A stretch of DNA of 64,000 bases from Escherichia coli (GTDB taxonomy: Bacteria > Pseudomonadota > Gammaproteobacteria > Enterobacterales > Enterobacteriaceae), in the NCBI RefSeq assembly GCF_002854065.1, contig NZ_CP024147.1. One strand, written 5' to 3'. Positions within the stretch are counted from its first letter, which is position 1. Each line of letters starts with the position of its first letter. The position numbers and the translations under genes are program-made. The notes under the pieces were generated by a model that saw only the letters and a program-made list of their open reading frames with translations, did not search any database and was not told the origin of the DNA. Below are positions 20,046-23,512 of this stretch, one piece after another.

Positions 20046-21290
20046 TTACTGATACACCGGCAGCAAATTAAAGCTCGATAAGATATGGACCAGTGCGTTG
20101 CCGACGCCAAACACCAGAATCAGCGCAATCATCGGCTTGCCACCCCAGACGCGGAATTTCGGGCTGCCAAAGCGTTTACGCGATGCACGGGCTAACAGCG
20201 CCGGAACAATTGCCGCCCAGATGGTAGCCGCTAAACCAGCATAACCAATGGCGTACAGGAATCCGTTCGGGAACAACAGCCCCCCCACAACTGGCGGGGC
20301 AAAGGTCAGCAATGCCGTTTTAAAGCGGCCCACAGCCGAGTCGTCGAAACCAAACAGATCTGCCAGATAGTCAAACAAACCCAGCGTTACGCCGAGGAAC
20401 GAACTCGCTACCGCAAAGTTTGAGAACACGACCAGCAGCAGATCCAGACTACGGCTGTTCAGTACGCCGCTTAACGCCTGTACCAGCACATCAATATTAC
20501 CGCCCTTCTCTGCAATACCGATAAACTCCGGACGCGGGATGTTACCCATCGTCGCCAGCAACCAGATGGTATACAGCGCCAGCGCCATCAGCGTACCGTA
20601 CACCAGGCATTTCACGATGGTTTTCGGATCTTTGCCGTAATACTTCATCAGGCTTGGCACGTTACCGTGATAACCAAACGATGCCAGACAGAACGGCAGG
20701 GTCATCAACAGATACGGTGCATAAGACGCATTGCTTTCGGCGACGTTGAACAATGTCGCAGGCTGCACATGTCCCAGCAGGCTACCAAAGGTGAGGAAGA
20801 AGGTAATGACTTTCGCCCCCAGCACAATCGCTGTCATGCGACTGACGGCTTTAGTGCTCAACCACACCACAAACGCTACCAGCAATGCAAAACCAAAACC
20901 CGCCGCCCGTGCCGGGACGTTTAGTGACATCTCTGCGAAGGTGTGATGCAGAATCGAACCACTGGCAGAAATATAGGCATAGGTCAGGATATAGAGCACA
21001 AAGGCAATGGAAATGCCGTTGACCACGTTCCAGCCTTTGCCCAGCAAATCTTTGGTGATGGTGTCAAAACTCGAACCGATTCTGTAATTCAGGTTAGCTT
21101 CCAGAATCATCAAGCCGGAATGCAGCATACAGAACCAGGTAAAGATCAGCGCCGCCATTGACCAGAAAAACCACGCCCCGGACATGACCACTGGCAGAGA
21201 AAACATCCCTGCGCCAATAATGGTGCCGCCGATAATCACCACGCCGCCAAGCAGCGACGGTGACGTTTGGGTGGTGGTTAGTGTTGCCAT
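20046..21290 (-). CDS. mtr: tryptophan-specific permease
   Basis: ORF 414 aa, aromatic amino acid permease family matching Mtr. Confidence 0.93.
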
Positions 21291-21343
21291 GAGGGCTTCT
21301 CTCCAGTGAAAAATAGTGCGACTGCGTTGTTATGTATTGCACT

Positions 21344-21361
21344 GTACCAGTACACGAGTAC
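21344..21361 (-). promoter_or_regulatory. candidate TrpR operator in the mtr promoter
   Basis: On the mtr strand reads GTACTCGTGTACTGGTAC, a near-palindrome of the GTACT-type Trp repressor operator; mtr is a known TrpR/TyrR target. Confidence 0.4.
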
Positions 21362-21370
21362 AAAAGACAG

Positions 21371-21401
21371 AAAAAAAGCCCCGATGGTTCAAATCGGGGC
21401 T
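21371..21401 (-). terminator. intrinsic terminator downstream of deaD
   Basis: On the minus strand: agccccgatttgaaccatcggggct followed by a T7 run. Confidence 0.7.
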
Positions 21402-21443
21402 GTATATATTATTTTACAGACTGTGTTCGCTGTTCAGCGATGA

Positions 21444-23333
21444 TTACGCATCACCACCGAAACGACGACGACCGGTAGAGTCATCACGACGCGGAGCGCG
21501 GCCTTCACGACGTTCGCCGCTAAAACGACGACCATCACCACGACCACCTTCACGGCGTTCACCGCTGAAGTTACGACCACCTTCACGACGCTCGCCACTG
21601 AAACCACGACCACCGCCACGACGCTCTCCGCCAGTATGCGGCTGTGCATCGCCCAGTAATTGCATATTCATCGGCTTGTTCAGAATGCGAGTACGTGTAA
21701 AGTGTTGCAGCACTTCACCCGGCATACCTTTCGGCAGTTCGATGGTGGAGTGAGAAGCAAACAGCTTAATGTTACCGATGTAACGGCTGCTGATGTCGCC
21801 TTCGTTAGCAATCGCACCAACGATATGACGAACTTCAACACCATCATCGCGGCCCACTTCAATACGGTACAACTGCATATCGCCAACATCACGACGTTCA
21901 CGACGCGGACGATCTTCACGGTCGCCACGCGGACCACGGTCGTTACGATCGCGCGGACCACGGTCATCACGGTCACGGAATTCACGTTTCGGACGCATCG
22001 GCGCATCTGGCGGTACGATCAGAGTACGTTCACCCTGTGCCATTTTCAGCAGTGCCGCAGCCAGAGTTTCGAGATCCAGCTCTTCACCTTCTGCAGTCGG
22101 CTGAATTTTGCTCAGCAGTGCGCGGTATTGATCCAGATCGCTGCTTTCCAGCTGCTGCTGTACTTTAGCGGCGAATTTTTCCAGACGGCGTTTGCCCAGC
22201 AGTTCTGCGTTCGGCAGTTCTACTTCCGGAATAGTCAGCTTCATAGTACGTTCAATGTTGCGCAGCAGACGACGCTCGCGGTTCTCAACGAACAACAGCG
22301 CGCGGCCAGCACGACCCGCACGACCGGTACGACCGATACGGTGAACGTAAGACTCAGAATCCATCGGGATATCGTAGTTAACCACCAGGCTGATACGCTC
22401 AACGTCCAGGCCACGGGCTGCAACGTCGGTCGCAATCAGGATGTCCAGACGACCATCTTTCAGGCGTTCCAGTGTCTGCTCACGCAGCGCCTGGTTCATG
22501 TCACCGTTCAGCGCGGCGCTGTTGTAGCCGTTACGCTCAAGAGCTTCAGCCACTTCCAGAGTCGCATTTTTGGTACGAACGAAGATAATCGCCGCATCAA
22601 AATCTTCCGCTTCCAGGAAACGTACCAGTGCTTCGTTTTTACGCATACCCCAGACAGTCCAGTAGCTCTGGCTGATGTCAGGACGGGTAGTCACGCTGGA
22701 CTGAATGCGCACTTCCTGCGGCTCTTTCATAAAGCGGCGGGTAATGCGACGAATCGCTTCCGGCATGGTTGCAGAGAACAGAGCGGTCTGATGACCTTCC
22801 GGGATCTGCGCCATAATAGTTTCAACGTCTTCGATGAAGCCCATGCGCAGCATTTCGTCAGCTTCATCCAGAACCAGACCGCTCAGTTTAGAGAGGTCCA
22901 GAGTGCCACGTTTCAGGTGGTCCAGCAGACGGCCCGGAGTACCGACAACGATCTGCGGCCCCTGACGCAGGGCGCGTAATTGCACGTCATAACGCTGGCC
23001 GCCGTACAGGGCAACCACATTTACGCCGCGCATGTGTTTAGAGAAATCCGTCATTGCTTCAGCAACCTGTACCGCCAGTTCGCGGGTCGGTGCCAGCACC
23101 AGAATCTGTGGTGCTTTCAGCTCAGGATCAAGATTTTGCAGCAGAGGTAAAGAGAATGCTGCAGTTTTTCCGCTCCCCGTCTGGGCCATACCCAGAACGT
23201 CGCGGCCATTCAGCAGATGTGGAATACACTCTGCCTGAATTGGAGATGGTTTTTCGTAACCCAGATCGTTAAGGGCTTCAAGGATAGGAGCCTTCAGGCC
23301 CAGATCTGCAAAAGTGGTTTCGAATTCAGCCAT
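21444..23333 (-). CDS. deaD: ATP-dependent DEAD-box RNA helicase DeaD/CsdA
   Basis: ATG at 23333 ([13 protein letters not shown]...) gives 629 aa; DEAD-box motifs ([12 protein letters not shown]); Arg/Gly-rich repetitive C-terminal tail. Confidence 0.93.
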
Positions 23334-23512
23334 GTAGTACGTGTGCCTCAAAATTAATGGCGGCCAGTCTACATAACTCATCATGAAATTGATCAGCAAT
23401 TTTCATTGAAAAGTGTGAACCGGCTCAAAGTAGGTGTATTAACGAACAACAACGCCCTCACCCGTTAAGGTGATGGCAATCAAAAAAGATTACGGGCTGA
23501 TGTGTACGTCAG

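What the first reader, a model, noticed from the sequence alone, without database searches (positions are those of the whole stretch)
21344..21361. TrpR-operator-like palindrome in the mtr promoter, next to the deaD terminator
GTACTCGTGTACTGGTAC on the mtr strand resembles the GTACT-type Trp repressor operator. It lies about 55 bp upstream of the mtr start and about 20 bp from the deaD terminator hairpin, so the two convergent-divergent control regions are tightly packed.
Basis: partly seen in the sequence, partly recalled or inferred. Interest (0 to 1): 0.2.

Follow-up and report, generated by a model that had tools for sequence, protein, structure and literature searches.

The report
Known Trp repressor operator of mtr
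The 18-base palindrome is the classical binding site through which the tryptophan repressor shuts off the E. coli tryptophan permease gene mtr; it is real, strongly conserved and already known, so it is an ordinary finding.

Summary
Window 21344..21361 reads GTACTCGTGTACTGGTAC on the minus strand, 53 nt upstream of the mtr ATG (21290) and 15 nt downstream of the deaD terminator hairpin (21401..21377). The window is E. coli and is identical to K-12 across all the control elements. A weight matrix built only from the trp, aroH, trpR and aroL operators scores this site at 18.7 bits. That is the top hit in the 64 kb window (next best 8.0) and is within the range of the training operators. In 78 other Enterobacteriaceae mtr loci, retrieved by coding sequence alone, the site is always present. 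Positions 1-5 and 9-18 are invariant, including promoter-spacer positions that only a bound protein would constrain. The site runs into an invariant TGG and a TACAGT/TACAAT -10 candidate, so bound TrpR would occlude RNA polymerase. Held literature confirms that TrpR represses mtr and TyrR activates it. One correction is needed: deaD and mtr are tandem on the same strand, not convergent or divergent. The TyrR strong box (21418..21401) lies upstream of the terminator, so the terminator sits inside the mtr upstream control region. The 1991 footprinting papers could not be retrieved. Verdict: already known, low interest.

The parts
21344..21361 (-). TrpR (Trp repressor) operator of mtr: GTACTCGTGTACTGGTAC. 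It is an imperfect dyad whose half-sites are GTACTCGTG and GTACCAGTA, against the consensus half GTACTAGTT.
   Evidence: Sequence. Unique consensus match in the window. 18.7 bits on a matrix trained without mtr, top of the window. Single register. Positions 1-5 and 9-18 are invariant in 74 distinct sequences and only positions 6-8 (21356..21354) vary.
21341..21349 (-). Inferred extended -10 element TGgTACAGT (TG at 21349..21348, hexamer 21346..21341), overlapped by the promoter-proximal half of the operator.
   Evidence: Inferred from the sequence. TGG is invariant. The hexamer is TACAGT in 56 loci, TACAAT in 20, TACATT in 3 and TACAGC in 1. The position agrees with the published statement that the strong TyrR box is centred 42 bp upstream of the -35. 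No experimental TSS was retrieved.
21364..21369 (-). Inferred weak -35 region (TGTCTT with a 17-nt spacer), lying between the terminator T-run and the operator.
   Evidence: Inferred from the spacing to the -10 candidate and. It matches TTGACA poorly (2 of 6) and is only partly conserved. The simple promoter scan did not report it.
21370..21401 (-). deaD intrinsic terminator: stem-loop AGCCCCGAT-ttgaacc-ATCGGGGCT at 21401..21377, followed by T7 at 21376..21370.
   Evidence: Terminator scan. RNA fold of -21.2 kcal/mol, z = -3.3. Covariation in 77 sequences, with 97% of cells paired, 6 of 10 pairs changed on both sides and 0 of 500 shuffles as good.
21401..21418 (-). TyrR strong box TGTAAAATAATATATACA, which abuts the terminator stem.
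   Evidence: One mismatch to TGTAAA-N6-TTTACA, and the only match with 2 or fewer mismatches in the window. Found at a constant 57-nt offset upstream of the operator in about 73 of 78 loci. The literature places a strong TyrR box proximal to the mtr promoter and upstream of the -35.
21431..21448 (-). Candidate weak TyrR box CGTAATCATCGCTGAACA, overlapping the deaD stop codon.
   Evidence: 8 of 12 consensus positions, with G at position 2 and C at position 17. It lies 12 bp from the strong-box core, which is 8 bp if boxes are counted as 22-mers, matching the spacing quoted. It is not positionally conserved outside Escherichia. Tentative.
20046..21290 (-). mtr coding sequence (tryptophan:H+ symporter, 414 aa). 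The Shine-Dalgarno sequence GGAGAG is at 21304..21299.
   Evidence: The SD block is conserved.
21444..23333 (-). deaD coding sequence (DEAD-box RNA helicase), upstream of mtr on the same strand.
   Evidence: DeaD lies upstream on the same strand in all 74 related loci with enough flank to tell.

Best explanation
The 18-mer is the operator through which the tryptophan-bound Trp repressor (TrpR) represses mtr, the high-affinity tryptophan permease gene. A TrpR dimer carrying two L-tryptophan molecules binds the imperfect dyad GTACT-CGTG-TACTG-GTAC. The site fills the spacer of the mtr promoter and overlaps the TG of an extended -10 and the first three bases of the -10 hexamer (TGgTACAGT). Bound repressor would therefore exclude sigma-70 RNA polymerase, and it would override activation by TyrR bound further upstream. 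When tryptophan is scarce, the aporepressor releases the site and the permease is made. What is shown here: the sequence, its uniqueness, its fit to the other four operators, its invariance across the family, and its position relative to the gene, the terminator and the TyrR box. What comes from held literature: TrpR represses mtr, TyrR activates it, and repression dominates. What is inferred: the exact -10, -35 and TSS, and the occlusion mechanism.
For: The sequence is at the stated coordinates. The genes are mtr and deaD in E. coli, and the region is identical to K-12 across all the control elements. There is one consensus match in 64 kb against 0.06 expected. A matrix built from the trp, aroH, trpR and aroL operators, each verified in K-12 DNA, scores the site at 18.7 bits; the next best hit in the window scores 8.0 and the training operators score 18.1 to 24.9. 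There is one clear register, with the plus and minus 8 bp registers at 2.3 bits or less. In 80 loci retrieved through the Mtr protein alone, every locus with enough upstream sequence carries GTACT-NNN-GTACTGGTAC 30 to 57 nt before the ATG, and it is the top matrix hit in 79 of 79 loci. It is the best-conserved block of an otherwise divergent intergenic region. The invariant positions include spacer positions (1-5, 9-13) that a sigma-70 promoter does not itself constrain. Literature: TrpR represses mtr (citing Czernik 1994 and Jeeves 1999). CRISPRi of trpR raises mtr expression, TyrR activates, and repression prevails. A strong TyrR box lies upstream of the -35 at a distance that puts the -35 immediately upstream of this 18-mer.
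Against: No direct binding data could be read here. The 1991 footprinting and mutagenesis papers (Sarsero, Wookey and Pittard; Heatwole and Somerville) and Jeeves 1999 are not held, so the identity with the footprinted site rests on my memory plus the indirect evidence above. No experimental TSS was retrieved, so the overlap with the -10 is inferred. Both half-sites lack a perfect CTAG core (CTCG and CCAG). Positions 6 and 7, which correspond to the A and G of CTAG in trpO, vary freely in the left half, so the left half-site may contribute less. Part of the invariance of positions 13-18 could be due to the overlapping extended -10 rather than to TrpR. Two of 200 mononucleotide shuffles of the window reached the observed score.
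Confidence: 0.95

Rival explanations
1. The conserved block is only the core promoter of mtr (spacer plus extended -10), and its resemblance to a TrpR operator is incidental. On this view repression by TrpR would be indirect or act elsewhere.
For: The promoter-proximal third of the site overlaps an invariant TGG-TACA(G/A)T that looks like an extended -10. Conservation continues 5 nt beyond the dyad into AGTGC.
Against: Positions 1-5 (GTACT) and 9-13 (GTACT) lie in the promoter spacer, which has no sequence requirement for sigma-70, yet they are invariant in 74 distinct sequences. The site scores as well as bona fide operators on a matrix that never saw it. No other candidate TrpR site exists in the region, while TrpR control of mtr is documented.
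Confidence: 0.03
2. The site is bound mainly by a different regulator that recognises GTAC-rich dyads, with TrpR playing at most a minor role.
For: Direct binding was not tested here. The left half-site is degenerate at positions that matter in trpO.
Against: No such regulator is mentioned for mtr in the literature read. The papers read describe only TrpR and TyrR as inputs, and TrpR knock-down de-represses mtr. The geometry of GNAC at positions 1, 9 and 15 is exactly that of trpO.
Confidence: 0.015
3. It is a chance palindrome with no function.
For: Two of 200 mononucleotide shuffles of the whole window reach the same matrix score, and 6 of 100 shuffles contain a consensus match.
Against: It lies exactly in the promoter of a tryptophan transporter. 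It is invariant across dozens of genera while neighbouring intergenic positions have diverged. The real genome avoids such words: the runner-up in the window scores 8.0 bits against a shuffle mean maximum of 13.4, so the shuffles overstate chance.
Confidence: 0.005

Closest known systems
E. coli trp operator (trpO) at the trpLEDCBA promoter
   Same: It is an 18-bp dyad with GNAC motifs at positions 1, 9 and 15 (GAACTAGTTAACTAGTAC against GTACTCGTGTACTGGTAC). It lies within the core promoter and overlaps the -10. It is bound by the TrpR-tryptophan holorepressor to block RNA polymerase (sequence verified in K-12; the mechanism is from established knowledge).
   Different: The mtr site lacks the perfect CTAG cores (it has CTCG and CCAG) and scores lower (18.7 against 24.9 bits). 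It is combined with upstream TyrR activation and has no attenuator.
aroH, trpR and aroL operators (the other members of the five-operator TrpR regulon)
   Same: They share the half-site family, and the mtr site falls within their score range of 18.1 to 21.6 bits. aroL, like mtr, is co-regulated with TyrR.
   Different: Their positions relative to the promoter differ between the operators (from memory: aroH overlaps the -35 and trpR overlaps the start site). At aroL a recent screen found TyrR dominant and TrpR negligible, whereas at mtr TrpR dominates.
TyrR-activated promoters with upstream TyrR boxes (mtr itself; tyrP; ipdC of Enterobacter cloacae)
   Same: A strong TGTAAA-N6-TTTACA box lies upstream of the -35 and activates through the RNA polymerase alpha-CTD. 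The box is present here at 21418..21401.
   Different: This concerns the neighbouring element, not the 18-mer. Here an intrinsic terminator hairpin lies between the TyrR box and the core promoter.

Membership tests
TrpR operator (E. coli Trp repressor regulon) | About 18-bp dyad-symmetric site matching the GNACT-N8-AGTNC / GTACTAGTTAACTAGTAC family | tested here: met
   One mismatch to GTACTNGTNNACNAGTAC and unique in the window. 18.7 bits on a matrix from the four other operators, within their range. Single register.
TrpR operator (E. coli Trp repressor regulon) | Located upstream of a gene of tryptophan or aromatic amino acid metabolism or transport | tested here: met
   It lies 53 nt upstream of mtr, the tryptophan permease.
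TrpR operator (E. coli Trp repressor regulon) | Overlaps core promoter elements so that bound repressor excludes RNA polymerase | tested here: inconclusive
   It overlaps an inferred extended -10, TGgTACAGT, and lies just downstream of the -35 position implied. No experimental TSS could be retrieved, and the simple promoter scan did not call this promoter.
TrpR operator (E. coli Trp repressor regulon) | Conserved in relatives that carry the regulated gene (phylogenetic footprint) | tested here: met
   Present in all 78 loci with enough upstream sequence. Fifteen of 18 positions are invariant, and it is the top matrix hit in 79 of 79 loci.
TrpR operator (E. coli Trp repressor regulon) | Tryptophan- and trpR-dependent repression of the downstream gene | not testable with these tools
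   Literature only. TrpR represses mtr, and CRISPRi of trpR raises mtr transcripts.
TrpR operator (E. coli Trp repressor regulon) | Direct protection of these bases by purified TrpR plus tryptophan | not testable with these tools
   The primary footprinting papers are not held. From memory they place the site on this sequence.
Rho-independent (intrinsic) terminator (deaD) | GC-rich stem-loop followed by a U-run, downstream of the stop codon on the gene's strand | tested here: met
   A 9-bp stem with 6 GC pairs plus T7, beginning 42 nt after the deaD stop codon.
Rho-independent (intrinsic) terminator (deaD) | Stem maintained by compensatory changes in relatives | tested here: met
   97.1% of cells paired, 6 of 10 pairs with changes on both sides, 0 of 500 shuffles as good, and slid controls at 53% paired or less.
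TyrR box | TGTAAA-N6-TTTACA with G and C at the symmetric plus and minus 8 positions, upstream of the -35 for activation | tested here: met
   TGTAAAATAATATATACA has one mismatch. It sits at a constant 57-nt offset from the operator across genera. The geometry agrees. Binding itself was not tested.

The most novel reading that the evidence does not exclude
The operator itself is classical. The only reading with any novelty concerns its surroundings. The deaD terminator hairpin is embedded, with conserved spacing, between the TyrR activator box and the mtr core promoter in the whole family. This could mean the hairpin DNA or RNA is more than a passive neighbour. It might set the helical phasing for TyrR and alpha-CTD activation. 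Alternatively, it might couple read-through from the cold-induced deaD transcript to occupancy of the TyrR and TrpR sites, by transcriptional interference or a TrpR roadblock. Nothing here tests this.
Probability: 0.05. Interest if true: 0.35.

Novelty: already known. Interest (0 to 1): 0.08.

Why it matters
It matters little as a discovery. The mtr operator is one of the five textbook Trp repressor operators of E. coli, described in 1991. The result is useful as a calibration: a reader without tools correctly recognised a real regulatory site from sequence alone. The re-analysis adds a clean phylogenetic footprint showing which operator positions are invariant (1-5 and 9-18) and which are free (6-8). 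It also documents that the deaD terminator lies between the TyrR box and the mtr core promoter, with that arrangement conserved throughout Enterobacteriaceae.

Tried and rejected
1. I tried to retrieve the primary mapping papers by DOI and PMC id: Sarsero 1991 (PMC208063), Heatwole 1991 (PMC207980), Sarsero and Pittard 1991 (PMC212541), Yang 1996 and 1997 (PMC178520, PMC179526), and a PMC id I recalled for a TrpR ChIP-chip paper (PMC3777760). None is held.

2. Full-text searches for 'mtr operator' and for TrpR ChIP-exo found nothing. The exact 18-mer appears in only one held paper, as part of a primer for a control fragment, which says nothing about TrpR.

3. I looked for an experimental mtr TSS in two open genome-wide TSS datasets. 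One supplement is truncated before this coordinate and the other has no mtr entry in the files held.

4. I considered tandem or overlapping TrpR sites at plus and minus 8 bp, as described for trpO and aroH. The matrix gives only 2.3 and -2.7 bits there, so there is no sequence support for a second full site.

5. I considered the promoter-like hit TGAACA-17-AATAAT at 21436..21408 as an alternative mtr promoter. I rejected it because it lies upstream of the deaD terminator, overlaps the TyrR box, and the region is poorly conserved.

6. I first took the weak TyrR box to be CGCTGAACAGCGAACACA (21439..21422, 5 of 12). A better candidate, CGTAATCATCGCTGAACA (21448..21431, 8 of 12), fits the published 8-bp separation if boxes are counted as 22-mers. 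This is still tentative.

Full report
**Observation.** The plus strand at 21344..21361 reads gtaccagtacacgagtac. The ORF at 20046..21290 (minus) is the tryptophan permease Mtr (NCBIfam equivalog NF007789, 870 bits). The ORF ending at 21444 (minus) is the DEAD-box helicase DeaD. The region matches 5425 of 5426 complete E. coli genomes, where it is annotated mtr / deaD. It differs from K-12 MG1655 at only 4 of 180 positions, none of them in a control element. The offset is K-12 coordinate = window + 3,284,527. There are 53 nt between the 18-mer and the mtr ATG, and 15 nt between it and the deaD terminator hairpin. The hairpin has its stem at 21401..21377 and a T7 run at 21376..21370. One statement is wrong: deaD and mtr are on the same strand, so this is a terminator followed by the next gene's promoter, not a convergent or divergent pair.

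**More than chance?** The palindromic consensus GTACTNGTNNACNAGTAC, allowing up to 2 mismatches, occurs once in the 64 kb window. That occurrence is this site, with 1 mismatch, against 0.06 expected from dinucleotide-preserving shuffles. As an independent test I fetched the four other TrpR-regulated promoters from K-12 and located their operators in the DNA:

- trp: GAACTAGTTAACTAGTAC
- aroH: GTACTAGAGAACTAGTGC
- trpR: GTACTCTTTAGCGAGTAC
- aroL: GTACTAGTTTGATGGTAT

I built a symmetric weight matrix from these four, without mtr. The mtr site scores 18.7 bits and is the best hit in the window. The runner-up scores 8.0 bits, and the training operators score 18.1 to 24.9. Two of 200 mononucleotide shuffles reach 18.7. 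However, the real sequence's runner-up is far below the shuffle mean maximum of 13.4, so GTAC- and CTAG-rich words are avoided in this genome and the shuffles overstate chance. Only one register scores. The registers shifted by 8 bp, where tandem TrpR dimers would sit, give 2.3 and -2.7 bits.

**Conservation.** I retrieved 80 mtr loci from other Enterobacteriaceae using the Mtr protein only, so retrieval did not depend on the operator. The genera include Escherichia, Citrobacter, Salmonella, Kluyvera, Enterobacter, Klebsiella, Raoultella, Kosakonia, Atlantibacter, Cedecea and Shimwellia.

- Every locus with enough upstream sequence (78) carries GTACT-NNN-GTACTGGTAC 30 to 57 nt before the ATG.
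- It is the top matrix hit of the whole locus in 79 of 79 cases.
- The intergenic region is otherwise divergent: many columns are below 30% identical to the window. The block 21364..21339 stands out against this.
- In 74 distinct sequences, operator positions 1-5 and 9-18 and the following A are invariant. Position 7 is free (A19 C7 G35 T13), and positions 6 and 8 vary slightly.

Positions 1-5 and 9-13 lie in what would be the promoter spacer, which sigma-70 does not read. Their invariance therefore argues for a bound protein rather than for the promoter alone.

**Promoter geometry (inferred).** The site is followed by TACAGT (56 loci) or TACAAT (20 loci), and its own bases 13-15 supply an invariant TGG. 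The sequence thus reads TGgTACAGT, an extended -10. A held paper states that the strong TyrR box of mtr is centred 42 bp upstream of the -35. The strong box here, TGTAAAATAATATATACA at 21418..21401, then places the -35 at about 21364..21372, immediately upstream of the 18-mer and 17 nt from TACAGT. The -35 itself is poor (TGTCTT), as expected for an activator-dependent or extended -10 promoter. With a start near 21333..21335, the operator would span about -27 to -10. I could not retrieve an experimental TSS, so this step is inference.

**Mechanism.** The best explanation is the textbook one. The TrpR dimer with bound tryptophan occupies the dyad, covers the spacer and the extended -10, and excludes RNA polymerase. 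This makes tryptophan uptake responsive to the intracellular tryptophan level. TyrR bound upstream activates in response to phenylalanine or tyrosine. Held literature supports the regulatory facts:

- TrpR represses mtr.
- TyrR boxes lie upstream of the -35 and activate through the alpha-CTD.
- In a 2025 single-cell CRISPRi screen, knock-down of trpR raised mtr expression, TyrR acted as activator, and repression prevailed.

The 1991 footprinting and mutagenesis papers are not held. From memory, they identify this same sequence as the Trp repressor binding site.

**Surroundings.** The deaD terminator is a genuine, covarying hairpin. In 77 sequences, 97.1% of cells pair, 6 of 10 pairs show changes on both sides, none of 500 shuffles does as well, and slid controls pair at 53% or less. 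It lies between the TyrR strong box, which overlaps the first stem base, and the core promoter. The order is TyrR box, hairpin, T-run, about 9 nt, operator, and this order holds with constant spacing across the family. deaD is upstream on the same strand in all 74 loci with enough flank. A candidate weak TyrR box, CGTAATCATCGCTGAACA (21448..21431, 8 of 12), overlaps the deaD stop codon. It fits the published 8-bp separation if boxes are counted as 22-mers, but it is not positionally conserved in other genera.

**Rivals.** Three alternatives were considered.

- Promoter-only conservation is unlikely because of the invariant spacer positions and the matrix score.
- A different regulator is unsupported by any source read.
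- Chance is excluded by conservation.

**Comparison, novelty and verdict.** The site is a member of the five-operator TrpR regulon of E. coli (trp, aroH, trpR, mtr, aroL). It shares the GNAC geometry at positions 1, 9 and 15 with trpO. It has imperfect CTAG cores (CTCG and CCAG) and a lower score. Its left half-site is degenerate at positions 6 and 7. All sequence-level membership features were met. Direct binding and repression cannot be tested with these tools and rest on the literature. This is already known biology, so interest is low (0.08). The only mildly new material is the family-wide footprint and the conserved embedding of the deaD terminator inside the mtr control region.

Noticed in passing
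window 21370..21418: The deaD intrinsic terminator hairpin lies between the TyrR strong box, which overlaps the first stem base at 21401, and the mtr core promoter. The order TyrR box, hairpin, T-run, operator and its spacing are conserved in about 75 Enterobacteriaceae species, and the stem covaries.
   Followed up: yes
window 21431..21448: A candidate weak TyrR box, CGTAATCATCGCTGAACA (8 of 12 consensus positions, with G2 and C17), overlaps the deaD stop codon TAA (21446..21444). Its distance from the strong box fits the published 8 bp if boxes are counted as 22-mers. It is not positionally conserved outside Escherichia.
   Followed up: partly
window 21341..21349: The mtr -10 candidate is preceded by an invariant TGG (an extended -10, TGgTACAGT). 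In 20 of 80 loci counted the hexamer is TACAAT, closer to consensus than the E. coli TACAGT, while the -35 region is a poor match everywhere.
   Followed up: partly
whole window (matrix scan): The second-best TrpR-matrix score in the real 64 kb (8.0 bits) is well below the mean maximum of mononucleotide shuffles (13.4 bits). This is consistent with genome-wide avoidance of GTAC- and CTAG-containing words, so simple shuffles overstate the chance of such sites.
   Followed up: no
window 21425..21440: A small second stem-loop (CGCTG-aaca-GCG region) is predicted in the deaD 3' UTR just after the stop codon in the minimum-free-energy fold. The region is poorly conserved.
   Followed up: no
window 23333..23399: The mechanical ORF for deaD starts at a TTG at 23399 (651 aa). 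The RefSeq annotation and the NCBIfam profile (which matches residues 23-651) start 22 codons later, at 23333 (629 aa).
   Followed up: partly
window 21408..21436: A sigma-70-like match, TGAACA-17-AATAAT, on the minus strand overlaps the TyrR strong box and lies upstream of the deaD terminator. It is probably a chance match in AT-rich sequence.
   Followed up: no
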